A DNA stretch of 64,000 nt from positions 66,144 to 130,143 of the forward strand of contig JAPPGX010000191.1 of NCBI GenBank assembly GCA_028877265.1. Direction: 5' to 3'. The translations under genes were made by a program, and so were the position numbers. The DNA is from Acidobacteriota bacterium (lineage in GTDB: Bacteria > Acidobacteriota > Vicinamibacteria > Marinacidobacterales > Marinacidobacteraceae). Under the pieces are notes generated by a model. It searched no databases. It saw only the letters and a program-made list of their open reading frames with translations, and was not told where the DNA came from. The first letter of the stretch is position 1. Each line of letters starts with the position of its first letter. Below, one piece after another: positions 3,163 through 22,753 of the stretch.

Positions 3163-3213
3163 GGCATTCCTCCGCTGGGGTGGGCCGGCCATCGTACCGG
3201 AGGGGACAGGCTG

Positions 3214-4581
3214 CTAAGCCCTGGCCCGCCGTGCCCCAACCCCGAGCGCCAACCCGGAAGCCAGGATCAGGGTTATCGCGGCCGGGAATCCGGCCCGGGC
3301 CGCGTTGCCGGCAGGTGCCGCAGGCTCGAAGCGGGGCACCTGGTCCCACTTCACCGCATCGATCGGCGCGGTGGCGAAGAAGTGCGGGAAGAAGTGGTCC
3401 TTGAGGCGTTCGTGGAAGCGGCGCACCGCGTCCTGGTAGTCGAGTTGGGCCGCAAGGTCGGTCCCGGCGAGGCGATCCAGCGCGAGCTGGGTAGCGAGGG
3501 GCGGGGCGAACAGGGACCACCTGCGAGCCCACGCATCCCTCTCGCGCAGCACCTCGCGGTAGGCCCGGGAGGCGTCGCGGGCGGCCTGGTCTCCCCGGTG
3601 ATTCATGGCGTAATACCAGCCCCACGTGAACACGTCCTCGGGAACGGCTTGGCCGCTCCACTCGGGGTAGTCCCGGTAGAACGACTCCATCGTCGCGCTG
3701 GGCGGCAGGTCCCAGGCCTCGTGGTATCCCTGGCGCTGCTGCACCGTCAGCTCCAGCGCTTCCGGAACGGGGTGAAGAACCGCGTTGGCGAGACTCAGGG
3801 CCGCCGGAGCCAGGATCGTGAGGACGACCCAGGTGCCCGCGAGGATCATGGCGTTGGCGGTCGATGACCGGTTTCCCATCGCGACTCCGAGGCAGAGGGC
3901 GAACCAGAAGATCGTGTGCAGCGCGACGAGCGCGAACATCCAGCCGGCCCGGCCGTCGAGGTCGATGCCGGCCATCAGCGCCCCGGCGGCCATCACCACC
4001 GCGGCGACCGCGCCGACGAGAATCGCGCGGGATGCGAGCTTCGCGGCCAGGAGCCTCCGGCGGGGTGCGAACAGGCGGACCAGGTTCCAGGTGCCGCCCT
4101 CCCGTTCGCCCGAGATCAGGTCGTAGCTGACCGCGATGATGAAGAGCGGCAGCAGCGCGATGAGGAGGAATGCAAGGTCCAGATAGCCGGCGGCGGCAAG
4201 CCGCGGGTTCACGGTCTCGTGCTCGTAGAGCTGCCCTTCGAGGGCCAGGAGACGGATCCGGAGGCTCTCCGTTTCCACCGCGGCCCGGCCCCGTGCCAGG
4301 GCGGAAACCGGCAGCGGGGGCTGCGGGGCGGGAAAGGCCACGTAGTAGAGCACCTCTCCCGCGTCGGTGGTCGGCGGATAGACCGAGAGGAGAAAGTCCA
4401 ACTGGTCGTCGTAGGCGGTCTCGGCCGCCGCCAACGAAGACCGGGCGACTTCCGCGTTCCGCCCGGCGCGCCACGCGCCGTAGATTCCCAGGACGAGCAG
4501 AAGGATGATCGCGGCCGCGGTCCCGGCCGACCGGGTCAGCCGCCGGAGGTCGAGCGCCAGCAGCCGCGCCCAGGCTCTCAC
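3214..4581 (-). CDS. ABC-2 type / DUF3526-like transporter permease
   Basis: The protein is multi-TM with a large periplasmic loop, and 'SGEREGGTWNL' resembles the ABC-2 permease E-x-E-x-GT block. The proposed GTG start at 4581 overlaps the upstream stop as GTGA. The ORF track allows earlier starts up to 4656. Confidence 0.65.
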   Translation of the reverse strand: MRAWARLLALDLRRLTRSAGTAAAIILLLVLGIYGAWRAGRNAEVARSSLAAAETAYDDQLDFLLSVYPPTTDAGEVLYYVAFPAPQPPLPVSALARGRAAVETESLRIRLLALEGQLYEHETVNPRLAAAGYLDLAFLLIALLPLFIIAVSYDLISGEREGGTWNLVRLFAPRRRLLAAKLASRAILVGAVAAVVMAAGALMAGIDLDGRAGWMFALVALHTIFWFALCLGVAMGNRSSTANAMILAGTWVVLTILAPAALSLANAVLHPVPEALELTVQQRQGYHEAWDLPPSATMESFYRDYPEWSGQAVPEDVFTWGWYYAMNHRGDQAARDASRAYREVLRERDAWARRWSLFAPPLATQLALDRLAGTDLAAQLDYQDAVRRFHERLKDHFFPHFFATAPIDAVKWDQVPRFEPAAPAGNAARAGFPAAITLILASGLALGVGARRARA

Positions 4582-6038: not shown

Positions 6039-6417
6039 CGGTCCTCTCTTTCGGTCTGACGAGGGGGGAGCCGTGGTGTTGGTTACCGCCAGCCAAGTGG
6101 CGCGGAGTATTGCTCGCGCGGCCGCAGGGACAAAGGCGGTAGCGTCGTCCAACGGCCAGGCTCGCGCCGCCGGCCTGGAACGCCGGGTTCCCGAGCTACG
6201 AGGAATGGAGGCCGGCTGGCGCCGTCTCCCATCCCTCGTGCTCAAGGGGTCTCCGCAGAGCTATCGCTCTGCTTCGGAAACAGCCGGCACAGCGACGCGC
6301 TGGTAGAGAACGATCCCGCAGATCGACACCGCGCCGCGCACTGCGCGGTCGCGCAGCACGCGGCTGGTCAGAAGTCGGCGTTCCAGGCGCTCCGTCACCG
6401 TCCGGCGTCGGCGAGCC

Positions 6418-8862
6418 CTAGTGGAACCGCAGCGCGTAGCTCAGCCGGAACCCGCGACCCATCTCGGGGGCCCGGTCCTTGATGTACGACGTGTGGTTGC
6501 GATAGAGCTCGTTCGTCAGGTTGTAGCCCGAGAACGACAGGATGTGGGACAGGTGCTGCCGCGGCCAGACGTACGAGCCGCGCACGTTGACGACGGCATA
6601 GCCGTCGGTTTCGGTCTCGCCGCGGAACCCGTCGGTCTGCCGTCCCGCAAACTCCACCTGCGGGCTCAGCGTGAACCCGCCGTAGAGGATGTCGAGTTTC
6701 ACCGAGCCTCGGAGCGGCGGAATCCGCGGCAGCGCTTCATCGTTCGCTGTCAGCCGCGCGTCCACGTAGCCGATCCCGAGGGTCAACCAGGTCCGTCCGA
6801 CGAGCCGGGCGCCGGCCTCGGCGTCGAATCCGGCGAAGCGGCTGTCGCCCTGCAGGATGTCGAACACCGGCAGGTTGTCGATGACCGCATCCCTGCGGCT
6901 GCCGAAGATGAAGTTGTCGATCTCGTACGTGAAGAAGTTCAGGTCGCCACGGGTGCGGACCCCCCGGTGCCGCAGGCTCACGTCCAGTCCGATGGTGGAC
7001 TCGGCGTCGAGGTCCGGGTTGCCGATGTCGAACGAGAACGTGCCGGCGTGGGCGCCGAAGTTGTACAGCTCCTCGATGGCCGGGGCGCGGTGGGAGCGCG
7101 TCAGGTTGGCCACCAGCGCGTTTCCGGCGCCGAGATCCGCGTGGACTCCGACCGACGCCGACAGACCCGCGAAGCTGCGGTCGCGCACGTCGGGCGCCTC
7201 GGGCCGAGGCTCTTCCTCCTCGTGCCCGTGCTCCTCGTGTCCATGCTCCTCGTGCCCATGTTCCTCGTGCCCGTGCTCCTCTTCGTGCCCGTGCTCCTCT
7301 TCGTGCCCGGCTCCACTGCTCCGCGCCGCCACGGCGTAGTCATCGCGGTCGATCCGGGCGCCGAACTGCACTCGAAACCGCCCGAAGGTCAGTTCTTCGT
7401 AGGCGAAGGCCGCGAAGGAGCTCAGGTCGGTCCGCGGCGCCAGCGCCTCGGCTCCGGCCGCCTCGAAGTCCCGCACCTGCGCCCAGGCGCCGAATCTCCC
7501 CGACAGACGCTCCGTCTGCCGCTGGTCCACGTCGGCCCGGAAGATGTAGACCTGGTTGTCGTAGCGCGTGCCCACGCGCTCCTGCCCGGCCTCGGTCTCC
7601 AGCTCGTCATGTCCCCAGTCCACGACGCTCAGGCTGAGCCGTCCTCCCTCGATGACGCTGTTGTCGAGGTCCCTCACCCCGAAGTCGAAGCGCCCGGCGC
7701 GACGCTGCCAGTCGAGTTCGATATCGGTCGTGCCATGCATTTCCTCCTCGTGCTCGCCTTCGTGCTCGTCATGATGTTCGTCTTCGTGTCCGCCGTGCTC
7801 GTCTCCGTGGTCATCGTGGTGCACGTGGAACTCGCCGACGATCGGAACTCCATAGCGGCCGTCGTTCACCGTCACGCCGGCGCTGGTGAAGAACCGTTCG
7901 CCGGTCCAGCCGAGCCCGGCCTGCGCATGGGTCGCCTCGGTCGCGGAATTCTCGACGACCCCCGCGGGCGTGTCGTAGTCCTCCGTCCGCCGCGTGCTGC
8001 CGGAGGCCCAGTAGTGGACTCCGTTCTGCTGTGCGTGCTGCACGCTGACGTTCCCGCCCGCCTGCGCGTTCGGACTCCCCACGTCGGCGCTCAACTGCGC
8101 CCGCGTGCCTTCCGTCGGCGACGCCCGGTAGCTCTCCTGGGGCGTGATCACGTTGACGAGCCCGCCGACCGCGTTGGAGCCGTATAGCAATGTCGCCGGC
8201 CCGCGGACGATCTCGACGCGTTCCACGCCGTTGGGGTCGATGGCGACGCCATGGTCGCCGGACTCGCTCGACAGGTCTCCGGTGCGGACGCCGTCCTCCA
8301 GGATCATGACCCGGTCGCCGTCGAAGCCGCGGATGATCGGCCGGTTCGCTCCGGGACCGAAGCCGCGCACCGCAATGCCGGGCTCGTTCCGCAGGGCGTC
8401 GGCGAGATTCGTGGCCGACTCCTTGGCGATATCGAACGAGTCCATGGTGGTGACCGCGTTGAATGCCTCGAGCGCGGTCTCGGTGCCGTCCACCGAGGCG
8501 GTCACTGTCACGTCCTCGCGAACGGGTGAGAGACTGAGTTCGAAGTCCACCGTCGCCGTCCCGCCCGGAAGGACGGTGACCGTCTGCCGTCCCGCGGTGA
8601 GGAGCTCGCGTTGCGCGAGGACGTCGTAGGAGCCGGCCGGCACGCCGGCGATCGCGAACCTTCCCTGTCCGTCGGTCAACGCGAATTTGCCCGTGCCCAC
8701 GAAGAGGACGACCGCGCCGTGAACGGGGCCGTACTCCTCAAGAGTCACGGTGCCGCGAACCGCGCCGGTCTCCTGCGCCGCCACCGGCGCAGTCCCGAAG
8801 GCCGCCAGCAGGCCGGCTGCCAGGAAACAAGTCAGAAAAGAAGTGAATTTGGATCGGTACAT
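6418..8862 (-). CDS. TonB-dependent outer-membrane receptor with an N-terminal CarboxypepD_reg domain and two His/Glu-rich insertions
   Basis: A signal peptide is followed by 'GAVRGTVTLEE...GAVVLFVGTG...TDGQGRFAIAGVPAGSYDV', a carboxypeptidase-regulatory fold. The plug region reads 'IVRGPATLLYGSNAVGGLVNVIT'. The C terminus ends in the aromatic 'LSYALRFH'. GGGAGGA lies upstream of the ATG at 8862. Confidence 0.85.
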   Translation of the reverse strand: MYRSKFTSFLTCFLAAGLLAAFGTAPVAAQETGAVRGTVTLEEYGPVHGAVVLFVGTGKFALTDGQGRFAIAGVPAGSYDVLAQRELLTAGRQTVTVLPGGTATVDFELSLSPVREDVTVTASVDGTETALEAFNAVTTMDSFDIAKESATNLADALRNEPGIAVRGFGPGANRPIIRGFDGDRVMILEDGVRTGDLSSESGDHGVAIDPNGVERVEIVRGPATLLYGSNAVGGLVNVITPQESYRASPTEGTRAQLSADVGSPNAQAGGNVSVQHAQQNGVHYWASGSTRRTEDYDTPAGVVENSATEATHAQAGLGWTGERFFTSAGVTVNDGRYGVPIVGEFHVHHDDHGDEHGGHEDEHHDEHEGEHEEEMHGTTDIELDWQRRAGRFDFGVRDLDNSVIEGGRLSLSVVDWGHDELETEAGQERVGTRYDNQVYIFRADVDQRQTERLSGRFGAWAQVRDFEAAGAEALAPRTDLSSFAAFAYEELTFGRFRVQFGARIDRDDYAVAARSSGAGHEEEHGHEEEHGHEEHGHEEHGHEEHGHEEEEPRPEAPDVRDRSFAGLSASVGVHADLGAGNALVANLTRSHRAPAIEELYNFGAHAGTFSFDIGNPDLDAESTIGLDVSLRHRGVRTRGDLNFFTYEIDNFIFGSRRDAVIDNLPVFDILQGDSRFAGFDAEAGARLVGRTWLTLGIGYVDARLTANDEALPRIPPLRGSVKLDILYGGFTLSPQVEFAGRQTDGFRGETETDGYAVVNVRGSYVWPRQHLSHILSFSGYNLTNELYRNHTSYIKDRAPEMGRGFRLSYALRFH
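7210..7305 (-). repeat. In-frame tandem repeat inside the TonB receptor: four 15-nt units plus two 18-nt units encoding (HGHEE)4(HGHEEE)2
   Basis: The plus strand reads ctcctcgtgcccgtg / ctcctcgtgtccatg / ctcctcgtgcccatg / ttcctcgtgcccgtg / ctcctcttcgtgcccgtg / ctcctcttcgtgcccgg. The translated tract is GAGHEEEHGHEEEHGHEEHGHEEHGHEEHGHEEEE. Confidence 0.9.
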
Positions 8863-9067
8863 GGTTTGTCCTCCCGATTGCCTGCCCTCGGCAAGACGGT
8901 TCCGGCAGATGCCGTGCGTACCGCGGCGAACCTCGTTCTGAGGGCGTCCCGAACGGGGTCGGGGAACGCGGTGGCCGCGGGGGGACGCGCCCGGTCAGGC
9001 GACCGCTGGCGCGCGCCGGCCCGACGCCCGCCGCTTGGCGGCGGACGAGCACGGCGTGTTCTCGGAA

Positions 9068-9370
9068 CTACGCGGGAGGAGCGCGGGCGGGCTGGCGAAG
9101 GTAGAGCCGGGATCGGACCCGGACGACCTCGCGCGCTCGTTCAGGCGGATCCGCAGCATCGGCGAAGCCGATCTGCAACGAGCCGGAGAGCTCGGTGGCG
9201 GGCTGGTGTGGAGTCTGGCAGACCGCGCAGTGCTCATCGACGGAGTGCTCTTCGTGACAGAAGACCTCCGCCGCGGCGGCACCGGCCACCACCAACACCA
9301 GGAGAGCGATCCAGGCGCTCCAGCCAAGGCTGCGCCGGGCGAGCCTCGGGTGCGCGGTTCCTCGTCGCAT
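9068..9370 (-). CDS. Candidate small membrane-anchored Cys/His-motif protein (hypothetical, DUF2946-like in appearance)
   Basis: This 100-aa ORF has one N-terminal TM/signal anchor (WSAWIALLVLVVAGAAAA) followed by 'CHEEHSVDEHCAVCQTPH'. It lies upstream of, and on the same strand as, the His-rich TonB receptor. I did not check for an RBS, and the C-terminal half is low complexity. Confidence 0.35.
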   Translation of the reverse strand: MRRGTAHPRLARRSLGWSAWIALLVLVVAGAAAAEVFCHEEHSVDEHCAVCQTPHQPATELSGSLQIGFADAADPPERAREVVRVRSRLYLRQPARAPPA

Positions 9371-9572
9371 TGCTGTCGAATCGAACGGGCCAGTATACGG
9401 GCGACGAGTGTTTGCCGTAAGCCTCGTTTCGCCTCCGTCCCTGGATCATCGGTCTTCCACGTCCGGCCAAGACGCCACGCAGAACGCCTCGCAAAGGCGC
9501 AATTCGGCCGGGATCCATCTCCCGTCGGGCGCCGCCTGGGTTCTTGCCACGGGCTGCTAACGTCCACTCAAC

Positions 9573-12500: not shown

Positions 12501-12791
12501 ACCGCGATCGCCATCGAGGGAAGGTTCTTCGACGTGGGGCTCACCGGAGCCCGCGAGGACGCTTTCCGGGCGCCGATGCGGCTCTACGGCCGCCTTGGCG
12601 CGCTCGCGAACGACGCCGGCTGGGACGGCGCCGACTTCGCGCCCACCGACCAGCAGCGCGAAGTCCACCGGGTTCTCACGGAGCGGTTCGAAACGGCCCG
12701 CGGGGAATACCGCCGGTTGATGGACGAACAGCTTCCGCCATTCTGGCGGGCGCTCGCCGAGGCGCGCGCAGGAGACGGCGGTCCGGATTAA
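9573..12791 (+). CDS. Secreted VPS10/sortilin-like BNR (Asp-box) repeat protein, the type often annotated as a glycosyl hydrolase
   Basis: The protein is 1072 aa with a signal-like N terminus. It carries repeated Asp-box motifs: 'WKTSDRGVAW', 'YRSTDGGRSF', 'YRTRDGGANW', 'YRSRDGGDSW', 'YRSDDGGDSW', 'TTDGGETW' and 'SLDDGESW'. Confidence 0.8.
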   Translation: MLDRLSACLTLHLVSGFLVIPSGAAIAQPVPVDSSQLGGLQWRTIGPDGNRLSAAAGEWGNPDVIYFGAASGGIWKTSDRGVAWEPVFDDQEAASISALAVSPSHPGQVWAGTGETFIIRPALAMGNGIYRSTDGGRSFHHRGLEATGRIARILVHPEDPDLVYACALGHSYAPQPERGVYRTRDGGANWDLVLHVDEDTGCSDLAMDLRHPERLLAGMWQLQIDTGGLRSGGPGSGLYRSRDGGDSWERISGAKSDSAGGRGLPGGEDHPIGKVAVGIAPSDPDRWYALIEDESPGFYRSDDGGDSWRLMMTHHDLAERAPYYVRIAVDSADANRVYFASVLFSTTVDGGRTLIETSYRAGGDNHDVWVDPWMPERILVGHDGGGSISENRGASWRRVVPPVAQMYHVTVDDRIPYRVYGNRQDGYSYRGPSRTPGGGIPLGLWEGVGGCESGWATPEPHDDNVVWSGCYDGGLEIYDDRTGHVRDIRVWPEAGYGWAPADLKVRWHWNFPMVLSRHEPGTTWVGSQFVHKSTNRGQSWETISPDLTTNDKSRQQDSGGITVDNLYTFDGSVLFALAESPVQAGQLWAGSVDGKVHVTTDGGETWLDRSGNVPELDQDAWIKFIEPSHHDPETAYLAVSWHQSGDFRPHVYRTRNLGESWERISGGIPESPFSFVHVVREDPGRAGILFAGTDNKVWASLDDGESWFSLQLDMPPAPIYGMVIQERFQDLVVATYGRGFYILDGIGPLRDLAEASNDPLRVFDSPTAWRFLPRQSIKSEPGSLVTGRNAPYGAPISWWLDEDAASDRAEIAIVNAAGETVRTLRGPGAAGLSRVYWDLRGDTPDRATLRTRPPDRDWVEMGEDGQRRIRTWDLDIFPGYRGLLQPPGSYTARVTVGEHAAETTLRVEVDPASAATPDDIGEKYAFLNAIHDQLNELAEMVDELEWVRREIEGLRERHAGDERFTALLESAGEIAGTAIAIEGRFFDVGLTGAREDAFRAPMRLYGRLGALANDAGWDGADFAPTDQQREVHRVLTERFETARGEYRRLMDEQLPPFWRALAEARAGDGGPD

Positions 12792-14518
12792 TGAGCGAAG
12801 AGCGCTCCCGTTTCGGATCCCGGAATCTCCTGGCGGGGGTCGCGCTGGCTGCCTACGGCTGGTTCGCCGCCGCCTACGGGCCCGACGGCTCGTTCCCCGG
12901 ATCGGACTTCGGTTCGCTCGCCTACGGACTCTCCCGGCAGGGCCTCTGGTTTCTTCCCATCGGGATCCTCATCCCGCTGGTGCTGCCCCGGATGCGAGGC
13001 GTCCTCACCGGTTTCTTCCTGGTTCTGTTTCCGTCGCTGTTGATCGGAGCCGTAATGACCGCGCTCGTGGTCGCGGCTCCGGACGCCGCTCCCTGGTTGG
13101 TGCTGGAGAGCTTCGACTTTCCGGAAGTGGCAACGCTGCTCGCGCCGTTGACCGGAATGTTCGTCGGCGCGCTGTTCGGCGCCGTCATCGCGCGGGGGCC
13201 CGGCTCGGCGCTGGTCCTCATTCCGGTGCTGGTCGCCATCGCCGCGGTCCTCCTCGCGAGCGTCGCCGTGCTGCTCCTGCTGATCACCGACCGGGTTGCG
13301 GTGACGGATCCCATCGGGCCTCCCGGGTCTCCGGACGGCCAGTACCGCGACGCCTTCGCCGACTTCTATCGGGACGGAGCGCCCGGCTCGCAGGCGGCGC
13401 TGAACGCGGCCACCTTCGCCGCCGGCTTTCGCCTGGCGCTTGCCGCCGTGGGCGTGGACCCGGGCGTGCGGCTCCACGCGGCCCCGGCCGGCGATGCGAT
13501 GGAAATCGCCGGCTCGATGCCGATTGCCCTTCCCGCGTTCGGCGGGCGTTTCCTGAACATCGCGGCGACCGCGGCGCCGACCGTCGAGGACGGCGAGTTC
13601 CGGGCCGCGTTCCGGTCCGTCCGGGTTGGAGGCATCGAGGCGCCGGCCGTGCTCGTCCGGTCCTCGTCCCGGATCCTCTCACGCTGGCTGCGCGGGAACA
13701 CTGCGGTGGCGGCGCTGCTGGCGCCCTTCGATGAGGTCCGGGTTGCGGACTCGACGATCGTGGTGCGCTGGCGGGAGAGGGAGGACACGGGTGCGGGAGT
13801 CCATTCGCGGGTGGGCGGTTACCTGACGCTGCTCGTCCGGGACGCCGATCTTCTCCGGGAGCAACCGGACCGGACCTCCGCGGTGCTCAGGCGCACGTTC
13901 GCGCTCGCCGCCGTCCGTTCGGTGGGGGGCGACCCGCTGGCCGAGAACCGGGCCGCCCTGCTCGCCCTCGGGGGGGCGTTCGGACATCCCTCGCTGCTCG
14001 ACCTGGCGCGCGTGCCCGGTGGAGGGGAGGAAGCGCGAGGACTCCTGGACCGCCTGCCGCTCAGTCTGCACGGGCGTCGCGACTGGGCGCGCCATTTCTT
14101 CCTGAGCGCCGGCATGGTGCAGGTGGCGCCCGACGGCGTTTCGGGCGGGGCCGGGCTCTTGAAGGAACAACTCGACGCCGCGGAGGGCGGGACCGGGTTT
14201 TCCTTTGCCGACCTGTTGATGGACGAGGCGGGGACCCGCTTCGGGCTCACCGCGACCGGCGATGTGGCGCGGGCGCGCTGGATGCAGGTGCGGCTCGCCA
14301 ACGGCGTCCGGGAAGACGACCTCGCGCCGACCGATGCCGGGTTGCCCGAAGGGCTCAGCGCCGCGCGGCTGGAAGCCGAATTCGGCGGGGTGGGGGGCGA
14401 GGGCTTCCGGGACGTCGAGGCGGAGATCGTGCGCCTGGTGGACGCCCTGCCGCTCTACCGGATGCAGATTCCGGGGGCGCCGGCCGGCATCGCTCCTCCT
14501 TCGGGTACCCTGCCTTAG
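12791..14518 (+). CDS. Hypothetical membrane protein with about 5-6 N-terminal TM helices and a roughly 400-aa soluble domain
   Basis: The ATG at 12791 overlaps the upstream TAA as TAATG. The N-terminal third is hydrophobic. The C-terminal block 'HGRRDWARHFFLSAGM...GGTGFSFADLLMDEAGTRFG' was not assignable by eye. Confidence 0.6.
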   Translation: MSEERSRFGSRNLLAGVALAAYGWFAAAYGPDGSFPGSDFGSLAYGLSRQGLWFLPIGILIPLVLPRMRGVLTGFFLVLFPSLLIGAVMTALVVAAPDAAPWLVLESFDFPEVATLLAPLTGMFVGALFGAVIARGPGSALVLIPVLVAIAAVLLASVAVLLLLITDRVAVTDPIGPPGSPDGQYRDAFADFYRDGAPGSQAALNAATFAAGFRLALAAVGVDPGVRLHAAPAGDAMEIAGSMPIALPAFGGRFLNIAATAAPTVEDGEFRAAFRSVRVGGIEAPAVLVRSSSRILSRWLRGNTAVAALLAPFDEVRVADSTIVVRWREREDTGAGVHSRVGGYLTLLVRDADLLREQPDRTSAVLRRTFALAAVRSVGGDPLAENRAALLALGGAFGHPSLLDLARVPGGGEEARGLLDRLPLSLHGRRDWARHFFLSAGMVQVAPDGVSGGAGLLKEQLDAAEGGTGFSFADLLMDEAGTRFGLTATGDVARARWMQVRLANGVREDDLAPTDAGLPEGLSAARLEAEFGGVGGEGFRDVEAEIVRLVDALPLYRMQIPGAPAGIAPPSGTLP

Positions 14519-14701
14519 CAGCCTGTGGACAAAGTCACGCGGCATTCGAACGCCGATGCATCCCGCCTGAACCGCGCCTCTACGAGGCGCTCTGCGTTGC
14601 GTTTCGGTCGGAATACACTCGGTATTCCTCCCTCACGCGCCTGGTCAGCCGGGCGCCTCGGCGTTCTCGGTACTCACGTCACTTCATCCACAGGCTGCTA
14701 A
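14515..14701. repeat. A 187-bp element bounded by 15-bp perfect inverted repeats (21 bp with 2 mismatches) with internal hairpins
   Basis: TTAGCAGCCTGTGGA at 14515-14529 is the reverse complement of TCCACAGGCTGCTAA at 14687-14701. Internal hairpins are gcgcctc-tac-gaggcgc (14574-14590) and ggaatac-actcg-gtattcc (14610-14628). Confidence 0.8.
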
Positions 14702-14753
14702 ACGCCATGAGGCTGATCGATCGAGCGCACCTCCCGGGAGACCGGGACCGCTG

Positions 14754-15857
14754 ATGGCCGACACGGCCTCGCTGCTCGACAGTTGGGAGAGCGAGGTCCA
14801 GGCGGCCTGGCTCTACCTGGTGCTCGCGGAGATCGAGACCGGAGAGAACAAGCGCCTCTTCGAAGCGCTCTCGGCGGACGCGCTGGAACAGAGCAAGTCG
14901 TGGGTCAAGGCGATCGAGGACGCGGGTGGTTCGCCTCCCGGCCCCTACGAGGCGCCCTTCCGGGTGCGGCTCGTGGGCACGCTGATCCGGCGGATCGGCC
15001 CGCGCTCGCTGCTGCCCGCGCTCGCCGCGCTGAAGGTGCGCGGCCTCTCCGTCTACCGGGCGGCGCCGTCGAGCCTCGAGGTGCTCATCGCGCAGGAGGC
15101 CGGTTCGAGCGTCCGCGCGGAGTCCCGCGATCACCTGCTGGGCGAAGAGCAGCGCCACCTCTACACCCGCGGGGCGGTCGCGCTTCACGCCGCGATCTTC
15201 GGGGCGAACGACGGGCTGGTGTCGAACACGGCCCTCATCCTGGCCGCGACGGGCGCCGGCGCCTCTCCGGGCACGGCGCTCCTCATCGGCGCCGCCGGAA
15301 TGGTGGCGGGCGCCGTTTCGATGGCCACCGGGGAGTACCTCGGGGTGCGCTCGCGGATCGAACTCTACGAGCGGCAGATCGCGCTCGAGGAGGAGGAGTT
15401 GCGGCTCTACCCGGACGACGAGGCCGAGGAGCTGGCGATGATCTTCGAGGCGCGTGGTCTCGAGCGCGAGGCCGCCCGCGATCTCGGCAAGCGCCTGATC
15501 AGCGAGCCCGCCCGCGCGCTCGATGTGCTGACGCGCGAGGAACTCGGCCTGAATCCGGACGATCTGGGTTCGCCCTGGGCATCGGCGCTGGCCTCGCTGC
15601 TGAGCTTCGGCGGCGGAGCGCTGGTCCCGCTGCTTCCCCTCGCGCTCCTCCCGGCGCTCGGTCTGGGCAGCGGCCCCGCACTGCTCGGAGCGGTGGCCCT
15701 GAGCGGGGTGGCGCTTTTCGTGTCGGGGGCGGCGACGAGCCTGTTCACGGGCCGTTCCGGCATTCGCAGCGGCTTTCGACTGGCCTCCGTGGGGCTTGCG
15801 CTCTCGGGTGTCCTTTACGGTCTCGGGCTCGTCGTCGGGGCGAGCCTCGGCGGCTGA
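14754..15857 (+). CDS. VIT1/CCC1-family iron/manganese transporter with an N-terminal ferritin-like domain
   Basis: 'HAAIFGANDGLVSNTALILAATGA' is the VIT family signature. The protein has a glutamate-rich cytosolic helix (EEEELRLYPDDEAEELA) and five TM segments. An N-terminal four-helix-like domain reads 'ESEVQAAWLYLVLAEIE'. Confidence 0.85.
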   Translation: MADTASLLDSWESEVQAAWLYLVLAEIETGENKRLFEALSADALEQSKSWVKAIEDAGGSPPGPYEAPFRVRLVGTLIRRIGPRSLLPALAALKVRGLSVYRAAPSSLEVLIAQEAGSSVRAESRDHLLGEEQRHLYTRGAVALHAAIFGANDGLVSNTALILAATGAGASPGTALLIGAAGMVAGAVSMATGEYLGVRSRIELYERQIALEEEELRLYPDDEAEELAMIFEARGLEREAARDLGKRLISEPARALDVLTREELGLNPDDLGSPWASALASLLSFGGGALVPLLPLALLPALGLGSGPALLGAVALSGVALFVSGAATSLFTGRSGIRSGFRLASVGLALSGVLYGLGLVVGASLGG

Positions 15858-15864
15858 GGGCGAC

Positions 15865-16749
15865 ATGTTCAGGGGACGAGCGTCTGGTGCGGCGCTCGCC
15901 GCCCTCACGCTCCTGCTGGCGCTCGCCACGGGATGCGGATCGGATGACGCTCCCGCGCCCACGGCTCCGCCGCCTCTGGAGCCGCCCCCGGTCGGGCCGC
16001 CGCCGAACACGCTCGATCTTCCCGACGACCCCGGACATTTCTTCCTGGAAGTCTGGGAGGGCCCGGGTTTCGTTCCCATCGAATACTCGCTGGGACGGCC
16101 GCCCCGCTACGCGGTGACCGTCGGGGGCGAGCTCTATAGCGAGGGGCCGACCATCCAGATCTTTCCCGGCCCGCTGCTGCCGAACATCCAGGTGGGGCGG
16201 CTCTCCGCGGAGGACTTGGCGGCGATCATCGAGGCGACCGCGTCGACCGGGATCTCCCAGCTCGGGGAGGTGAACATTCCCCAGCCCACCACGGGTCCCG
16301 TGATCGCCGACGCGCCGACCTACGAGGTGGTGCTGCGTGACCGGCAGGGTTCGCACCTGCTCCGCATCGAGGCCCTGGGCTCGATATCGCACACCGATCC
16401 CCGGGTGATCGCGGTCCGCGAACTGATGCAGCGCCTCGACGAGGCCATCGCCGACACCGAGGCCGAGGTCTACCTCGGCGAACGCGTGCAGGTGTACGTC
16501 AGCGAGGGTCCCATGCCTCCCGAGCCGTCGGTGCTGAACGAGCGGCCCTGGCCGCTTCCGGACCCGCCGCCCGGGGACGAGGATGCGGAGGGCTTCGAGT
16601 GCCGGGTGTACGGGGGACAGGTTGCCGCGGGTCTCCTCGAGATCTTCGCGGACGCCGACCATGGAACGCGGTGGGACTACCACGGCGCCCTTCACCAGAT
16701 CCTCGCCCGTTCCCTGCTGCCTCACGAGGAGGGGTGCCGCACTTCGTGA
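15865..16749 (+). CDS. Hypothetical lipoprotein
   Basis: The internal ATG at 15865 gives MFRGRASGAALAALTLLLALATGCGSDD, which contains a lipobox LATGC. It lies 7 nt after the VIT stop. No family was recognised. Confidence 0.6.
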   Translation: MFRGRASGAALAALTLLLALATGCGSDDAPAPTAPPPLEPPPVGPPPNTLDLPDDPGHFFLEVWEGPGFVPIEYSLGRPPRYAVTVGGELYSEGPTIQIFPGPLLPNIQVGRLSAEDLAAIIEATASTGISQLGEVNIPQPTTGPVIADAPTYEVVLRDRQGSHLLRIEALGSISHTDPRVIAVRELMQRLDEAIADTEAEVYLGERVQVYVSEGPMPPEPSVLNERPWPLPDPPPGDEDAEGFECRVYGGQVAAGLLEIFADADHGTRWDYHGALHQILARSLLPHEEGCRTS

Positions 16750-18266
16750 ACGGCGGCGCAAGCTTCCGGCGTGCGGCGGCCCTGCTGCTCGCGGCGGTGC
16801 TGTGGTCGGCTCCCGTTTCGGCGTTCCAGGAGTTCGACGCCGGGGAGTTCCACGCCTACGTCGAGCAGGCGGTCGCCGACTGGGACGCCACCGGTCTCGC
16901 GGTCGCCGTCGTCCGGGGGCAGGAACTGTTGTTCGCTCGCGGTTACGGCGTCCTCGAACTCGGCAAGCCCGACGCGGTGGACCCCGACACCCTGTTCTCG
17001 GTCGGCTCGACCACCAAGGCGATGACCGCGGCGACGCTCGGCATCCTCGTGGATGAGGGGAAGCTGGCCTGGGACGATCCGGTGCGCCGGCACATCCCCG
17101 AGTTCGAGGTTGACGATCCCTGGGTCAGCGAGGCGATGACCGTGCGCGACCTCCTGACGCACCGCGGCGGGCTGCCGAACACCGATCTCTTCTGGTACGG
17201 CCAGGACACCGACATGGACGAGATGCTGTCGCGGCTCCGCCACGTCGAGCCCGCCTACTCGATGCGGTCCGGGTTCATCTACCAGAACGTGATGTACGCG
17301 ACCGCCGGCGAGGTCGTGAAGCGCGTCTCCGGGATGCCGTGGCATGACTTCGTGGACTCGCGCATCTTCGACCGGCTGGGGATGGAGCGAACGGTGGCCC
17401 TGCTCGCGCTCACCCGGGGCCGCGGCAACGTGGCCTCGCCCCACCATGTGGTGGACGGCGAGACGGTGGTGATCGAGAACGCGCCGGTGGATTCGGTGGC
17501 CGCGGCGGGATCGGTCTGGAGTTCCGTCCGCGAGATGTCGCTCTGGCTGCGCATGCTCCTCGCGTCCGGAGTGGCGGCCGACGGCACGCGGATTCTCAGC
17601 GAAGCGGTGGTCGAGGAGATGTTCCGCCCCCAGGCGCTGGTGGACCGGGCCGGTTTCTACCCGACCCAGCAACTGACGAAGCCCAAGTGGGTGACCTACG
17701 GCCTCGGCTGGTTCCAGCAGGACTACGACGGAGAGGCTCTCGACTTCCACACCGGGAGCATCGACGGGATGGTGGCCATCGCCGGCCTGATCCGGGACGA
17801 GGGGATCGGCGTCTATGTCCTCGGCAACCGCGACCACGTGGAGGTGCGGCACGCGCTGATGCTGCGCGGTCTCGATTCCCTGCTGGGAAAGCCGTTCCGG
17901 GACTGGAGCGCGGAGCTGAAGGAGGTCTACGTCGGCCTGGCCGAAGCGCAGGAGAAGACGCTCGCCGCGCTGCAGGCGGCGCGGACGGAGGACTCGCGGT
18001 CCCACCTCGAGCCGTCCGCGTACGCCGGGACCTACCGCCACGAGGTGGGAGGCGAGATCGTGGTCCGCGCCGGGGAGGAAGGCATCCGCCTCGAGTACGG
18101 CCCGGGTCTTCAGGGGCCGCTCACCCACTGGAGCCACGAGACCTTCCGGGTAGCCTGGGACGCCCGCTGGCGCGGCGAGTTGCTGGTGACCTTTGACCTC
18201 GATTCCGCGGGGAATCCCGCCGGCCTTTCGCTCGGCGAAACGAGGTTCCGGCGCGTCGCGGAGTAG
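16746..18266 (+). CDS. Serine hydrolase of the beta-lactamase / penicillin-binding (class C-like) family, secreted
   Basis: The S-x-x-K motif sits in 'FSVGSTTKAMTAATLGILVDEGKL', and 'LLTHRGGLP' is also present. The proposed GTG start at 16746 overlaps the upstream TGA as GTGA and gives a signal peptide VNGGASFRRAAALLLAAVLWSAPVSA. Confidence 0.8.
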   Translation: MNGGASFRRAAALLLAAVLWSAPVSAFQEFDAGEFHAYVEQAVADWDATGLAVAVVRGQELLFARGYGVLELGKPDAVDPDTLFSVGSTTKAMTAATLGILVDEGKLAWDDPVRRHIPEFEVDDPWVSEAMTVRDLLTHRGGLPNTDLFWYGQDTDMDEMLSRLRHVEPAYSMRSGFIYQNVMYATAGEVVKRVSGMPWHDFVDSRIFDRLGMERTVALLALTRGRGNVASPHHVVDGETVVIENAPVDSVAAAGSVWSSVREMSLWLRMLLASGVAADGTRILSEAVVEEMFRPQALVDRAGFYPTQQLTKPKWVTYGLGWFQQDYDGEALDFHTGSIDGMVAIAGLIRDEGIGVYVLGNRDHVEVRHALMLRGLDSLLGKPFRDWSAELKEVYVGLAEAQEKTLAALQAARTEDSRSHLEPSAYAGTYRHEVGGEIVVRAGEEGIRLEYGPGLQGPLTHWSHETFRVAWDARWRGELLVTFDLDSAGNPAGLSLGETRFRRVAE

Positions 18267-18309
18267 CCTTGACGGCACTGTCGTTCCTTCCTATCCTGCT
18301 CGCACGAAG

Positions 18310-19572: not shown

Positions 19573-22458
19573 ATGAGGCATGGTCGGACGGGGGCTCTTT
19601 CGGTATGGCCGCTTGCCGCGGCACTCGGTTGCGCGCTGCTGCCGGCGCTTGCCTGCACTCCGGACCAGGCCCCGCGAACGAGGCTGCTCATGGACGACGG
19701 GTGGCGCTTCTTTCGGGGCCGGGCGGAGGGATTCGTGCCGCTGCCTCAGGGGAATTCCGTCGAGACCTGGCGATTCCGGATGAGCGAGGCGGGGGAAGCG
19801 GAAGCGGAAACCCTGGCGGCGCCGGGGCTCGACGTCTCCGGTTGGCCGGAAGCGGCCCCGGGCGACGATGTGTTCGCGGGACAGCCGGGATTCGCCTGGT
19901 TCCGGGCGGAACTCGGTGCGCTGCCGCCGGGGCCCACCGGCCGGCCCCGGATCTACTTCCAGTCGGTGGACGACAACGCCACCGTGTACCTGAACGGCAA
20001 CCGTCTGGTGTACCACGAGGGTGCCGGGGCGCCCTTCGAGGTCACCCTGGACTCCGGTCAGGCCTGGAACCCGGGTGGGCCCAACGCGTTGGCGGTGCTG
20101 GTGGAGAACACCGGCGGCTCCGGCGGCATCGCGGGCGCCTCCTACTACAACCGGCCGGCCCATTGGCAAGACGACCCGGCAATGCGGTCGGCCCCTACGG
20201 CGGCGCCGGACTTCGACGACAGCGGCTGGGAGGAGGTCCGCGTTCCCCACGACTTCGTGGTGGGCGGCGAATTCGATCCCAGGGGGGCCGACAAGCCCGG
20301 CGGGAAGCGTCCCGGCTTCAACGAGCTCTGGTACGACCGGGACCATGGTTACAAGCCGAAGGGCGTCGGCTGGTACCGCCGGTCTTTCGACCTTCCGGCG
20401 GCCGACCGGGGAAAACGGATCTGGCTCGAGTTCGACGGGGTGTACCGGAACAGCGATGTGTGGGTGAACGGGGAGTGGCTCGGCCACCACTGGAGCGGCT
20501 ACACCGGGTTCCACTACGACATCACGGACGTGGCCGATTTCGGCGGCCGGAACGTCGTCGCGGTCCGCGCTGACGCGGACTGGGACGAGGGCTGGTGGTA
20601 CGAGGGCGGGGGCATCTACCGTCATGTCTGGCTGACCAAGCTGGACCCGCTGCACGTCGGGCGCTGGGGCACCTTCGTAACCACGCCGGAGGTGACGGAC
20701 GAATCGGCCCTGGTGCAGGTCGAGACCACCCTCGTCAATGACGGGGCCGTGCCGGCGGACGGCGCGCTCCGGATCGCGCTGATCGACGCGGAGGGCACCA
20801 CGGTCGCGACCACGGACACCACCGGCACTGTTCCCGCCCGGGGTGAGCTGGAGTTTCGCCAGGAGCTGGCGATCGAGGATCCGACGCTCTGGTCCCTGGA
20901 CGACCCCTACCTCTACACCGTGCAGACCACCGTGGAGGCGGGCGGACGGGTCACGGACCAGACCGGGACGCCGTTCGGCGTGCGGACGTTCCGCTTCGGC
21001 GGAGACGGTTTCTTCCTGAACGGCGAACACGTGAAGATCAACGGCGCCAACCTCCACACCGACTTTGCCGGGGTGGGAGTGGCCCTCCCGGACCGGATCA
21101 ACGTCTACCGGCTCGAGAAGCTCAGGGAGATGGGAGCGAACGCCATCCGCACCTCGCACAACCCGCCCGCGGCCGAGGTACTGGACGCGGCGGACCGGCT
21201 CGGGATGCTGGTGCTCGTCGAAAACCGACACATGGGCACTTCGGACGACGTGATCGGTGACGTCGAGAGCATGGTGCGGCGAGACCGGAACCATCCGAGC
21301 GTCATCGGCTGGAGCATGAACAACGAGGGCCTGCGGCAGGGTCCCGAGGTGGCCGGCGAGCAGCTGCGGGCGATGCACGCCGCGATCAAGCGGCTGGACC
21401 CCACCCGGCCCACGACGGGGAGCGTGGGTCCGCTGACCGGCGCCACTTCTCCCGACGAGATCGGGACGGAGCGGAATCTCATCAGCCTGGCGGAGGTCAT
21501 CGATGCCCGGGGGTTCGATCCGGCCAACTACGACGAGTACCACGCCGCCAACCCGGACCGGCCCATGCTGGCCCTCGAGGCCGGCTACGACCTCACCACC
21601 CGCGGGGTCTACGTGGACGACGAAGCCAGGGGCCACCACAGCTCCTATGACACCTCGGCAGCGGAGACGTGGGGACGGATCGCGGGGACCGACTACGTCT
21701 CGGGAGGTTTCGTCTGGAACGGAATGGATTACCGGGGCGAGCCGTTCCCCTTCGACTGGCCGGTCGTCACCGCCCAGTACGGCTTCATGGACACCTGCGG
21801 CTTCCCGAAGGACAACTACTACTACTACCGGTCCGCCTGGAGCTCGGACCCGCTCGTCCACCTGTTCCCGCACTGGAATGCGCCGCCCACCGCAGATGAC
21901 GGGACCGTGGAGGTCCGGTCCTTCAACAACTGCGAAGCCGTCGAACTGTTCCTCAACGGGGAGAGCCAGGGCCTGAAGGACCGCGAGCCCTACTCGGGCC
22001 TCTCGTGGGAGGTCCCGTGGGAGCCCGGGTCGCTCACGGCGACCTGTTACCGGGACGGGGAAGCCGTGGCGGAGACCCGGCGCGAGACCACCGGCGAGCC
22101 GGCCGGAATCGTGCTGGAGCCGGACCGGTCAACCATCCATGCGGATGGCGAAGACGTGTCGCTGGTCAAGGTCCTGATCGTGGATTCGGAGGGTCGGAAC
22201 GTCCCCACCGCCGGCAACGAGGTTCAGTTCCGGGTGGACGGACCGGGAGAGATCATCGGGGTGGGGAATGGCGATCCGTCGAGCCACGAGCCGGACCTGG
22301 CTGAGAGCCGCCGTGCGTTCAACGGCTTGGCCCTCGTCATCGTCCAGGCATCCAGGGAGCCCGGGACGATCCGCCTGATCGCGGAGTCGCCGGGGCTCGA
22401 GACCACCGCCGTCGAGATCACCGCGGCAACGGCGCCGATCCGCCCCCGCGTGCCGTAG
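19573..22458 (+). CDS. Glycoside hydrolase family 2 (beta-galactosidase/beta-glucuronidase-like) lipoprotein
   Basis: A lipobox is present in MRHGRTGALSVWPLAAALGCALLPALAC. Family blocks are 'VWVNGEWLGHHWSGYTGFHYDIT', 'NAIRTSHNPP' and 'WSMNNEG' (acid/base Glu region), followed by C-terminal Ig-like domains. Confidence 0.85.
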   Translation: MRHGRTGALSVWPLAAALGCALLPALACTPDQAPRTRLLMDDGWRFFRGRAEGFVPLPQGNSVETWRFRMSEAGEAEAETLAAPGLDVSGWPEAAPGDDVFAGQPGFAWFRAELGALPPGPTGRPRIYFQSVDDNATVYLNGNRLVYHEGAGAPFEVTLDSGQAWNPGGPNALAVLVENTGGSGGIAGASYYNRPAHWQDDPAMRSAPTAAPDFDDSGWEEVRVPHDFVVGGEFDPRGADKPGGKRPGFNELWYDRDHGYKPKGVGWYRRSFDLPAADRGKRIWLEFDGVYRNSDVWVNGEWLGHHWSGYTGFHYDITDVADFGGRNVVAVRADADWDEGWWYEGGGIYRHVWLTKLDPLHVGRWGTFVTTPEVTDESALVQVETTLVNDGAVPADGALRIALIDAEGTTVATTDTTGTVPARGELEFRQELAIEDPTLWSLDDPYLYTVQTTVEAGGRVTDQTGTPFGVRTFRFGGDGFFLNGEHVKINGANLHTDFAGVGVALPDRINVYRLEKLREMGANAIRTSHNPPAAEVLDAADRLGMLVLVENRHMGTSDDVIGDVESMVRRDRNHPSVIGWSMNNEGLRQGPEVAGEQLRAMHAAIKRLDPTRPTTGSVGPLTGATSPDEIGTERNLISLAEVIDARGFDPANYDEYHAANPDRPMLALEAGYDLTTRGVYVDDEARGHHSSYDTSAAETWGRIAGTDYVSGGFVWNGMDYRGEPFPFDWPVVTAQYGFMDTCGFPKDNYYYYRSAWSSDPLVHLFPHWNAPPTADDGTVEVRSFNNCEAVELFLNGESQGLKDREPYSGLSWEVPWEPGSLTATCYRDGEAVAETRRETTGEPAGIVLEPDRSTIHADGEDVSLVKVLIVDSEGRNVPTAGNEVQFRVDGPGEIIGVGNGDPSSHEPDLAESRRAFNGLALVIVQASREPGTIRLIAESPGLETTAVEITAATAPIRPRVP

Positions 22459-22696
22459 GGAACGCCGGTCTTCAGACCGGCACCGCTGCGCGAGAGCGCA
22501 GCGAAACCGCGACTCTGTACCGCGCGGTATGGCGCCCACGGCTTGGAACGCCGGCTTCAGCCGGCACAGCCCGCCGAAGGCGGGCGGCGAGACCTCATTC
22601 GCCGGGATGGCGCGGCTGCGCACGCCAATCCACCAGGGGTAGCGAAGAACCGCCCGCGGCCCTGCGGGCCGCTGTGCCGGCTGAAGCCGGCGTTCC
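22459..22696. repeat. Three copies of a roughly 26-nt REP-like hairpin unit. Copies 2 and 3 form a 26-bp perfect inverted repeat.
   Basis: Copy 1 is ggaacgccggtcttcagaccggcac (22459-22483). Copy 2 is ggaacgccggcttcagccggcacagc (22545-22570). Copy 3 (22671-22696) is the exact reverse complement of copy 2. The element lies between convergent gene ends at 22458 and 22754. Confidence 0.85.
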
Positions 22697-22753
22697 GGGC
22701 CGGCGCCACCATCACGACTAGGAACGTCTCACCCGGACGCTCCCCGGCCCCGT

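What the first reader, a model, noticed from the sequence alone, without database searches (positions are those of the whole stretch)
14515..14701. A 187-bp inverted-repeat-bounded structured element between a gene stop and the VIT1 iron-transporter start
Seen: 15-bp perfect terminal inverted repeats are present (TTAGCAGCCTGTGGA and TCCACAGGCTGCTAA). They extend to 21 bp with 2 mismatches. The left repeat overlaps the TAG stop of the upstream gene. The right repeat ends 6 nt before a small uORF and 52 nt before the VIT ATG. Inside the element are two hairpins, gcgcctc/gaggcgc (14574-14590, followed by a T-containing tract) and ggaatac/gtattcc (14610-14628, in locally AT-richer sequence).

Inference offers three options:
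1. A MITE-like non-autonomous element.
2. A long-range stem that insulates or terminates the upstream operon.
3. A cis-regulatory leader (riboswitch or attenuator) for the metal exporter.

I could not match it to the yybP-ykoY (Mn) or NiCo riboswitch consensus from memory.
Basis: partly seen in the sequence, partly recalled or inferred. Interest (0 to 1): 0.5.

Follow-up and report, generated by a model that had tools for sequence, protein, structure and literature searches.

The report
Hairpin-shaped miniature transposon beside iron-transporter gene
The 187-bp inverted-repeat element is one copy of a previously undescribed, multi-copy miniature transposon (MITE) of marine Acidobacteria. It landed in the last codons of the upstream gene, and it is not a riboswitch or a conserved leader of the iron-transporter gene.

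Summary
In detail: window 14515-14701 is a 187-nt imperfect palindrome with 15-nt perfect termini. It folds far better than shuffled sequence.

It is an insertion. Six relatives with the same gene order (Sortilin/BNR gene, 578-aa gene, VIT1) have 4 nt (CGGT or CGGG) exactly where the window has these 187 nt.

The termini recur in at least 120 8-kb blocks of public genomes, mostly Vicinamibacteria MAGs. Most complete copies are 187 nt or 187 plus multiples of 18 nt.

Elements of 1.4-1.5 kb with the same termini encode a DUF772 + DDE transposase. It is IS1182/IS5-like but scores below NCBIfam cut-offs.

So this is a non-autonomous MITE. The riboswitch or leader reading is refuted, and nothing supports a terminator.

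Unusual features:
- The whole-length hairpin covaries: 17 of 65 pairs show compensatory changes.
- Wobble pairs favour one strand.
- Orthologous copies diverge less than their coding flanks.
- No clean target duplication is visible.
- An 18-nt micro-repeat nests inside many copies.

Verdict: a new member of a known kind, of moderate interest.

The parts
14515..14701 (-). Complete 187-bp foldback MITE. The strand given is the one on which the hairpin is better paired.
   Evidence: The blastn alignments to relatives break exactly at 14514 and 14702. Covariance model R1 scores 216.7 bits on the - strand and 53.1 bits on the + strand. 24 other copies are exactly 187 nt long.
14515..14539 (+). Left terminal inverted repeat: a YTAR tetranucleotide (TTAG) followed by CAGCCTGTGGA....
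   Evidence: The same terminus bounds the IS copies in L076, L123 and L032.
14677..14701 (-). Right terminal inverted repeat. It ends CTAA on the + strand.
14516..14518 (+). TAG inside the left terminus. It now serves as the stop codon of the upstream 575-aa gene.
   Evidence: In 16 of 48 gene ends near family members, the element's terminal TAG or TAA is the stop.
14574..14590 (.). Side hairpin (helix 5 of the consensus structure). It is the most variable helix and the one with the most covariation.
   Evidence: 4 of its 6 pairs show changes on both sides.
14610..14628 (.). Apical hairpin GGAATAC/GTATTCC, nearly invariant across copies.
   Evidence: helix 4.
12791..14518 (+). Upstream gene of unknown function with no Pfam hit. 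The insertion shortened it by three codons.
14702..14753 (+). Former last three codons and TGA stop (14708-14710) of the upstream gene, plus the original spacer of about 40 nt before VIT1.
   Evidence: Alignments A1 and A2. It diverges about 20% between the window and L055.
14754..15857 (+). VIT1/CCC1-family transporter gene. It is a neighbour of the element, not part of it.
   Evidence: Pfam PF01988, E-value 8.9e-56.
9462..9560 (+). Decayed half copy of the same family. It ends ...CCACGGGCTGCTAA, 12 nt before the Sortilin-like gene's ATG.
   Evidence: blastn at 70-76% identity to many copies; alignment A4.
3206..3217 (+). Solo 12-nt terminus ACAGGCTGCTAA. Its TAG on the - strand is the stop of the ABC-2 gene 3214-4656.
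   Evidence: My own rough composition-based estimate is about 0.006 chance matches to this 12-mer in the window.

Best explanation
Window 14515-14701 is a non-autonomous transposon (MITE) of foldback type.

What it is. It has no coding capacity. It carries the roughly 20-nt terminal inverted repeats (YTAG-CAGCCTGTGGAnnAAGT) of a group of 1.4-1.5-kb insertion sequences. Their transposase has a DUF772 domain and a DDE_Tnp_1 domain and is IS1182/IS5-like. The MITE is presumably moved in trans by that transposase.

What happened here. In an ancestor of a sub-clade of marine, apparently sponge-associated Vicinamibacteria (habitat inferred from MAG names), the element inserted 9 nt before the stop codon of the gene upstream of VIT1. 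It replaced 4 nt, removed three codons, and supplied a new TAG stop from its own terminus. The spacer between the two genes grew from about 40 to 235 nt.

The hairpin. The element's whole length is kept as a hairpin. I infer that this serves the element itself, by bringing the two ends together as a hairpin or cruciform for the transposase. I do not think it serves VIT1 regulation.

Shown: the insertion polymorphism, the copy number, the shared termini with transposase-bearing elements, and the covariation.

Inferred: mobilisation in trans, the reason for hairpin maintenance, and any effect on VIT1 expression.
For: 1. Insertion polymorphism.
- Six related loci (L001-L006; VIT1 72-97% identical) keep the same gene order but have 4 nt where the window has 187 nt.
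- Five other genomes carry the element at the identical site: L055, L057, L044/L119 and L061, the last with an internal deletion.

2. Multi-copy family.
- 79 inward-facing terminus pairs were found, 73 of them 500 bp or shorter. 24 are exactly 187 nt, with median identity 89%.
- The covariance model finds about 115 family members in 1 Mb of fetched loci.
- The fetched blocks alone hold 12-17 complete copies in each of four Vicinamibacteria or Ca. Marinacidobacterium chromosomes.

3. Autonomous partners.
- Elements in L076, L123 and L032 have the same termini and are flanked TTAG/TTAG.
- They encode DUF772 + DDE transposases. The best NCBIfam match is IS1182.
- A 45%-identical plasmid homologue in Sphingobium has the same end architecture, CTAA-CAGG...GACGAAGTC.

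4. No coding signal. Variable columns show no codon periodicity.

5. Hairpin maintained.
- 65 consensus pairs; 98.9% of cells are paired.
- 17 pairs show changes on both sides, against at most 7 with the partner slid by 1-3 columns. 0 of 500 shuffles reach the observed value.

6. Other insertions of the family are polymorphic between relatives. These include L002 11124-11328, absent from the window, and L055 391-577, whose empty site is at window 18262-18267.
Against: - No clean target-site duplication. The element is flanked by TTAG...CTAA, which is an inverted arrangement, where relatives have CGGT or CGGG. Across copies, position 4 of the terminal tetranucleotide behaves as part of the inverted repeat.
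- No transposase with these termini lies in the 64-kb window, so current mobility in this genome is not shown.
- Only about 20 nt at each end resemble the autonomous elements. The interior has no visible IS origin.
- Orthologous copies diverge 1.6-4% while 300-nt flanks diverge 4-9%. Purely selfish, decaying DNA would not be expected to do this.
Confidence: 0.93

Rival explanations
1. A cis-regulatory leader (riboswitch or attenuator) that senses metal and controls the VIT1 exporter.
For: The position is suggestive: the element lies directly upstream of a metal-transporter gene and is highly structured.
Against: - The element is absent upstream of VIT1 in six close relatives, which have a spacer of only about 40-70 nt.
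- There is no Rfam match in the element even at E-value 10.
- The same element lies beside many unrelated genes, in both orientations.
- The better-paired strand is antisense to VIT1.
Confidence: 0.02
2. A MITE that the host has co-opted as a structural RNA or DNA element. Possible roles are a barrier or processing site between the upstream gene and VIT1, an mRNA-stabilising hairpin, or a protein-binding palindrome in the manner of REP/BIME or Correia elements. This adds to the MITE origin rather than replacing it.
For: - Orthologous copies diverge 1.6-2.7%, against 4.3-8% in the flanks and about 20% in the adjacent dead sequence.
- The hairpin covaries.
- The stem is very stable: -95 to -116 kcal/mol as RNA.
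Against: - There is no T-run and no terminator-like or promoter-like site.
- Orientation relative to flanking genes is not biased: 14 versus 8.
- One ortholog (L061) has lost the centre of the element along with the spacer.
- The conservation could come from gene conversion among the many copies.
Confidence: 0.2
3. A family of small RNA genes transcribed from the strand complementary to the window's + strand.
For: - All 24 copies of 187 nt fold about 21 kcal/mol better on that strand.
- One-sided changes give G-U on that strand 17 times and A-C 3 times in the 22 copies used to build the model. In 15 further copies, counting all changes, the figures are 13 versus 8.
Against: - No promoter-like or terminator-like sites were found.
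- Much of the asymmetry is inherited from the common ancestor of the copies.
- G-T wobbles also stabilise single-stranded DNA hairpins, so a transposition intermediate explains the asymmetry equally well.
- Copies carry 18-nt insertions at many positions.
Confidence: 0.07

Closest known systems
Bacterial MITEs derived from DDE insertion sequences, such as Correia elements of Neisseria and other IS-derived MITEs (from my own knowledge)
   Same: - Size of about 100-400 bp, with terminal inverted repeats shared with an autonomous IS.
- No ORF and many copies per genome.
- Insertion polymorphism between relatives.
- Frequent location at gene ends or between genes.
- Ability to fold into a hairpin.
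   Different: - The palindrome spans the whole length and is maintained by compensatory changes.
- There is no clean direct target duplication.
- The interior is unrelated to the parent IS.
- Copies host a nested 18-nt micro-repeat.
IS1182 family, IS5-related, including IS1272 of staphylococci
   Same: - The presumed mobilising transposase has a DUF772 N-terminal domain and a DDE_Tnp_1 domain. Its best NCBIfam match is IS1182.
- IS1272 is reported to insert without target duplications, at and in place of inverted-repeat structures (PMC5678879). That recalls the missing duplication and the 4-nt replacement seen here.
   Different: - The scores are below the NCBIfam cut-offs: 216 bits against 270 for IS1182, and 104 against 140 for IS5_4.
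- Only 4 nt are replaced here, not a whole stem-loop of 21-85 bp.
- The three autonomous copies do show TTAG on both sides.
IS5 group of the IS5 family, with a 4-bp target of the YTAR type (from my own knowledge; no paper in the held library contained both 'IS5 family' and 'YTAR')
   Same: The elements are flanked by tetranucleotides of the form YTAR: TTAG, CTAG, CTAA or TTAA.
   Different: In the MITE copies the two tetranucleotides are mostly inverted rather than direct. Read from the outside inward they are TTAG 74, CTAG 40, TTAA 10 and CTAA 7. A true 4-bp duplication would not give this pattern.
REP/BIME and ERIC-type intergenic palindromes (from my own knowledge)
   Same: They are repeated, structured, intergenic elements that tolerate either orientation and can affect mRNA.
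   Different: REPs are about 35 nt and are linked to RAYT (HUH) transposases. This family has DDE-type terminal repeats and a DDE partner. I did not look for RAYT genes.

Membership tests
MITE (miniature inverted-repeat transposable element) | Small size (tens to a few hundred bp) with terminal inverted repeats | tested here: met
   187 bp. The arms are 15 nt perfect and 25 nt at 88%.
MITE (miniature inverted-repeat transposable element) | No transposase or other coding capacity | tested here: met
   The only ORF, 58 aa on the + strand, shows no codon-position periodicity across 22 copies: 18, 23 and 25 variable columns by position.
MITE (miniature inverted-repeat transposable element) | Multiple dispersed copies with unrelated flanks | tested here: met
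   At least 120 genome blocks contain the terminus. 73 terminus pairs of 500 bp or less have different flanks, and about 115 covariance-model hits were found. Within the window itself there is one full copy, one half copy and one solo terminus.
MITE (miniature inverted-repeat transposable element) | Presence/absence polymorphism at orthologous sites | tested here: met
   The window, L055, L057, L044/L119 and L061 are filled; L001-L006 are empty. Four further orthologous filled/empty cases were found.
MITE (miniature inverted-repeat transposable element) | An autonomous element with matching termini that encodes a transposase | tested here: met
   L076, L123 and L032 are intact or nearly so. 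L024, L009 and L056 are partial. None lies in the window.
MITE (miniature inverted-repeat transposable element) | Target-site duplication flanking the element | tested here: inconclusive
   Empty sites always hold exactly 4 nt. In the window they are CGGT against TTAG...CTAA. Only 12 of 69 copies have identical direct tetranucleotides, 7 of those palindromic.
IS1182 family (for the partner transposase) | Transposase reaches the NCBIfam NF033551 cut-off | tested here: not met
   215.8 bits (L123) and 116.9 bits (L076), against a cut-off of 270. IS1182 is the best-scoring family but the scores are below threshold.
IS1182 family (for the partner transposase) | DUF772 N-terminal domain plus DDE_Tnp_1 catalytic domain | tested here: met
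   PF05598 at E-value 1e-17 and PF01609 at 1.8e-15 in L123.
Riboswitch (yybP-ykoY, NiCo or other Rfam family) | Match to a curated covariance model | tested here: not met
   cmscan of 13500-16000 at E-value up to 10 gave no hit inside the element.
Riboswitch (yybP-ykoY, NiCo or other Rfam family) | Conserved upstream of orthologous genes | tested here: not met
   Absent in L001-L006.
Intrinsic terminator | GC-rich stem followed by a T-run | tested here: not met
   No terminator-like site on either strand in 14300-14900.

The most novel reading that the evidence does not exclude
The family reveals an unusual transposition mode for IS1182/IS5-like DDE elements. In this mode the element is recognised as a strand-specific hairpin or cruciform, which would explain the whole-length covariation and the G-T wobble bias. 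It would integrate by replacing 4 bp with its own YTAG termini instead of duplicating the target. Fixed copies would additionally be kept intact by selection or conversion, making them quasi-domesticated structural elements in sponge-symbiont genomes.
Probability: 0.2. Interest if true: 0.6.

Novelty: new member of a known kind. Interest (0 to 1): 0.35.

Why it matters
For annotation:
- The structured 187 nt upstream of VIT1 should not be read as a metal-sensing leader.
- The 'uORF' is debris from the upstream gene.
- The TAG stop of the upstream gene is donated by a transposon end.

More broadly, this is an abundant and apparently undescribed MITE family in marine Vicinamibacteria:
- The MAG names suggest sponge and coral hosts.
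- Partner insertion sequences occur in Bryobacterales and Rhodothermales MAGs, and short elements with the same termini occur in Planctomycetota MAGs.
- The family is therefore a marker of mobile-element traffic and of recent genome change in these uncultured lineages.

Three features make it a useful natural data set for how IS1182/IS5-like transposases choose and process ends and targets: the covarying whole-length hairpin, the missing target duplication, and the nested 18-nt micro-repeat. Two full-text searches of the held papers for related terms found nothing describing this family.

Tried and rejected
- Rfam scan of 13500-16000 at E-value 10: only two chance hits, both inside the VIT1 gene and none in the element.
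- Promoter and terminator scan of 14300-14900: none found.
- Coding test of the 58-aa ORF inside the element: no codon periodicity.
- Reading the recurring GGCTGCTAA 9-mer (four exact copies in the window) as a promoter -10 motif. I dropped this once the copies at 9552 and 3209 proved to be remnants of the same repeat family.
- A simple 4-bp (YTAR) duplication model and a TA-duplication model for the flanks: neither fits all filled/empty comparisons.
- Orientation bias relative to flanking genes, as a test of an mRNA-level role: 14 versus 8, not significant.
- Terminus hits in Firmicutes, Chlamydiia and similar genomes: no homologous transposase lies next to them. I treated them as the roughly 17 chance matches I estimated for an 18-base pattern in 596 Gb.
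- Literature searches for a described MITE of this kind: none found.
- A preprint on insertion-sequence insertions without target duplications proved not to bear on this case.
- I did not use the metagenome scan, the structure tools or the two remaining large protein searches. The question was already settled without them.
Full report
**1. The observation**

Window 14515-14529 reads TTAGCAGCCTGTGGA, and 14687-14701 is its exact reverse complement. The arms extend to 25 nt at 88% complementarity.

The TAG at 14516-14518 ends the ORF 12791-14518. The VIT1-family gene (Pfam PF01988, E-value 8.9e-56) starts at 14754.

More importantly, the entire 187 nt folds into one long branched hairpin.
- As RNA in 256-nt context, the + strand gives -121.3 kcal/mol (z -6.4). 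The - strand gives -143.6 kcal/mol (z -9.35). No shuffle does as well.
- With DNA parameters the z-scores are -7.8 and -9.9.

**2. It is an insertion**

I searched for homologues of the VIT1 protein and fetched the DNA around six of them, at 72-97% identity.

All six keep the local gene order: a Sortilin/BNR gene, then a gene of about 578 aa with no known domain, then VIT1. In all six, only about 40-70 nt separate the middle gene from VIT1.

Alignments A1 and A2 and blastn show that homology to the window breaks exactly at 14514 and resumes at 14702. Where the window has 187 nt, the relatives have 4 nt: CGGT in three and CGGG in two.

In the relatives the upstream protein ends ...PSGTLPGTP*. 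In the window it ends ...PSGTLP*. The element therefore landed 9 nt before the original stop. It removed three codons and supplied a TAG from its own terminus.

That ORF is debris, not a designed feature.

**3. It is one copy of a large family**

Most hits lie in MAGs of class Vicinamibacteria, including Candidatus Marinacidobacterium. Many of the MAG names suggest sponge or coral sources; that habitat is my inference from the names.

Counts:
- Pairing inward-facing termini gave 79 pairs, 73 of them 500 bp or shorter.
- 24 elements are exactly 187 nt, with median pairwise identity 89%.
- A covariance model built from 22 independent copies finds about 115 members in the roughly 1 Mb of fetched loci.
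- Four chromosomes hold 12-17 complete copies each in the fetched blocks alone.
- In the window the model finds the single full copy, at 216.7 bits on the - strand and 53.1 on the + strand.
- blastn adds a decayed half copy at 9462-9560, and a pattern search adds a solo 12-nt terminus at 3206-3217.

Five other genomes carry the element at exactly the window's site: L055, L057, L044/L119 and L061. L061 has an internal deletion. The insertion is therefore shared by a sub-clade whose flanks are 91-95% identical to the window. It is absent from the sister lineages L005, L006 and L001-L004.

**4. Autonomous partners**

Clustering ORFs across the fetched loci found one protein that recurs immediately inside the terminus. 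It has a DUF772 domain and a DDE_Tnp_1 domain.

Its best NCBIfam family is IS1182, at 215.8 bits against a cut-off of 270. The next best is IS5_4, at 103.8 against 140.

Three copies, intact or nearly so, are bounded by the same termini and each is flanked by TTAG on both sides. They are 1.4-1.5 kb long:
- L076, from a Vicinamibacteria chromosome.
- L123, from a Bryobacterales MAG.
- L032, from a Rhodothermales MAG.

These transposases are only 41-50% identical to one another, so the terminus is conserved across a deep IS clade.

A plasmid homologue in Sphingobium indicum (45% identical) has the same end architecture: CTAA-CAGGCCGTTGACGAAGTC at one end and GACTTCGTCACCGCGCTG-CTAG at the other.

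Only about 20 nt at each end of the 187-bp element resemble these insertion sequences. Both of its ends look like the left IS end (CAGCCTGTGG rather than CAGCCCGTGG). I infer a foldback origin from that.

Terminus hits in Firmicutes and other phyla have no such transposase nearby. I regard them as chance matches.

**5. What it is not**

It is not a riboswitch or leader. It is absent upstream of orthologous VIT1 genes, Rfam gives no match, the family sits next to unrelated genes in both orientations, and the better-folding strand is antisense to VIT1.

It is not a recognisable intrinsic terminator or promoter.

It is not coding. The 58-aa ORF on the + strand stays open in all copies, but variable columns show no codon periodicity.

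**6. Unusual properties of the family**

(a) The hairpin is maintained along its whole length.
- RNAalifold predicts 65 pairs, 17 of them with compensatory double changes.
- 98.9% of cells are paired. 0 of 500 shuffles reach the observed values. Sliding the partners by 1-3 columns gives at most 7 such pairs.

(b) Pairing is strand-biased.
- All 24 copies of 187 nt fold about 21 kcal/mol better on the strand complementary to the window's + strand.
- Among 22 independent copies, one-sided departures from Watson-Crick pairs are G-U on that strand 17 times and A-C 3 times.
- In 15 further copies not used for the model, counting all changes, the split is 13 versus 8. The bias is therefore real but partly inherited from the common ancestor.
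- Orientation relative to neighbouring genes is not biased: 14 versus 8. That argues against a role in host mRNAs. It favours a property of the element's own single-stranded form, either DNA or its own RNA.

(c) Orthologous copies diverge less than their surroundings.
- In seven of nine orthologous pairs the element diverges less than either flank: 1.6-4.1% against 3.3-9.3% in the 300-nt flanks, which are mostly coding.
- The 52-nt dead tail next to the window's copy differs by about 20% from L055.
- Two of the nine pairs are exceptions. In one the element equals one flank (3.7%) and in the other it exceeds both (15.4% against 11-13%).
- Selection and ectopic gene conversion are both possible explanations. 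I cannot separate them.

(d) The flanks are odd.
- Empty sites always hold exactly 4 nt in place of tetranucleotide + core + tetranucleotide. This holds in five orthologous comparisons and two paralogous ones.
- Read from the outside inward, the tetranucleotides are TTAG 74, CTAG 40, TTAA 10 and CTAA 7. Position 4 therefore behaves as part of the inverted repeat rather than as a duplicated target.
- In the window, TTAG...CTAA replaces CGGT.
- Neither a 4-bp duplication nor a TA duplication fits every case.
- For IS1272, an IS1182-family member, insertion without target duplication and with replacement of inverted-repeat targets has been reported (PMC5678879). The resemblance is suggestive, not demonstrated.
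- In 16 of 48 gene ends near family members, the element's terminal TAG or TAA serves as the stop codon. The window's copy does the same.

**7. Mechanism and consequence at this locus**

Shown:
- The element inserted into the last codons of the upstream gene.
- The coding damage is minimal, at three residues.
- The spacer before VIT1 grew from about 40 to 235 nt and now contains a stem of roughly -95 kcal/mol (+ strand RNA).

Inferred:
- The element was mobilised in trans by the DUF772 + DDE transposase.
- In relatives the short spacer suggests that the upstream gene and VIT1 are co-transcribed. The stem might therefore affect read-through or mRNA processing, but nothing in the sequence shows it.
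- One ortholog (L061) has lost the element's centre and the spacer without losing VIT1.

**8. Verdict**

The finding is a genuine, well-delimited feature and its first-listed interpretation (MITE) is correct. It is a new member of a known kind.

The family-level properties in section 6 and the nested 18-nt repeat are the interesting parts. They are leads rather than results.

Confidence that this is a MITE: 0.93. Interest: moderate (0.35).

Noticed in passing
L008 3705-3758; L025 6006-6227, L091 4957-5197 and L085 5253-5512; many other loci: An 18-nt unit, CCCCACCGGGAG(A/G)ACTGG, is inserted in either orientation at several positions inside copies of the MITE, sometimes three times in tandem. 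It explains much of the length series 187, 205, 223, 241, 260; a separate ~100-nt module adds to the longest copies (277-331 nt). It is present, absent or inverted between orthologous copies that differ by only 2-4%. It occurs 187 times in 1 Mb of fetched loci, 122 of them inside MITEs, and not at all in the window (one 3-mismatch chance hit). It looks like a very small mobile repeat.
   Followed up: partly
window 22529-22712: A second long inverted repeat with 59-nt arms at 78% complementarity lies in the intergenic stretch 22425-22748. L002 has only about 80 nt at the corresponding place. Short pieces at 22457-22492 match modules nested in long copies of the MITE family. It is probably another MITE family.
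   Followed up: partly
window 55669-55945: A third inverted-repeat element has 28-nt arms at 93% complementarity, 221 nt apart. Part of it (55664-55724) matches a module found inside a composite MITE copy, L014 1051-1432.
   Followed up: no
window 6180-6288: About 100 nt match, at 70-75% identity, the extra module (CCGAGCCAAGAGGGATGGGGGCCGGG...) that is nested in the 277-331-nt copies of the MITE. It is therefore an independent repeat family.
   Followed up: no
window 3193-9572: A 6.4-kb block holds two ABC-2 membrane genes and a TonB-dependent receptor. It lies between the amidohydrolase and Sortilin-like genes, which are adjacent in L002 and L003. The block is bounded by a solo MITE terminus (3206-3217) and a decayed half MITE (9462-9560), both in the same orientation. 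L001 has different content at this spot, including an AbiEii/DUF6088 pair. The position is a variable hotspot.
   Followed up: partly
window 18262-18267: This is the empty site (CTAC) for another member of the family, which is present in the orthologous position of L055 (391-577, flanked CTAG/CTAG).
   Followed up: yes
L002 11124-11328: In a relative, a 205-bp member of the family sits at the start of the gene downstream of VIT1, right after its ATG. It is absent from the window, L001, L003 and L005. The same neighbourhood was therefore hit independently.
   Followed up: yes
L009 and L123 (Bryobacterales), L024, L032 and L056 (Rhodothermales), L021 and L062 (Planctomycetota): The same 15-20-nt termini occur in MAGs of other orders and phyla. 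In Bryobacterales and Rhodothermales they bound transposase-bearing elements whose transposases are only 41-50% identical to one another. In the Planctomycetota MAGs they bound short elements of 166-181 bp. The MITE itself is abundant only in Vicinamibacteria. This suggests old horizontal spread of the IS clade.
   Followed up: partly
window 7211-7304: Tandem 15-nt repeats (CTCCTCGTGCCCGTG-like) lie inside the TonB-dependent receptor ORF on the opposite strand. They probably encode a short repetitive peptide segment.
   Followed up: no
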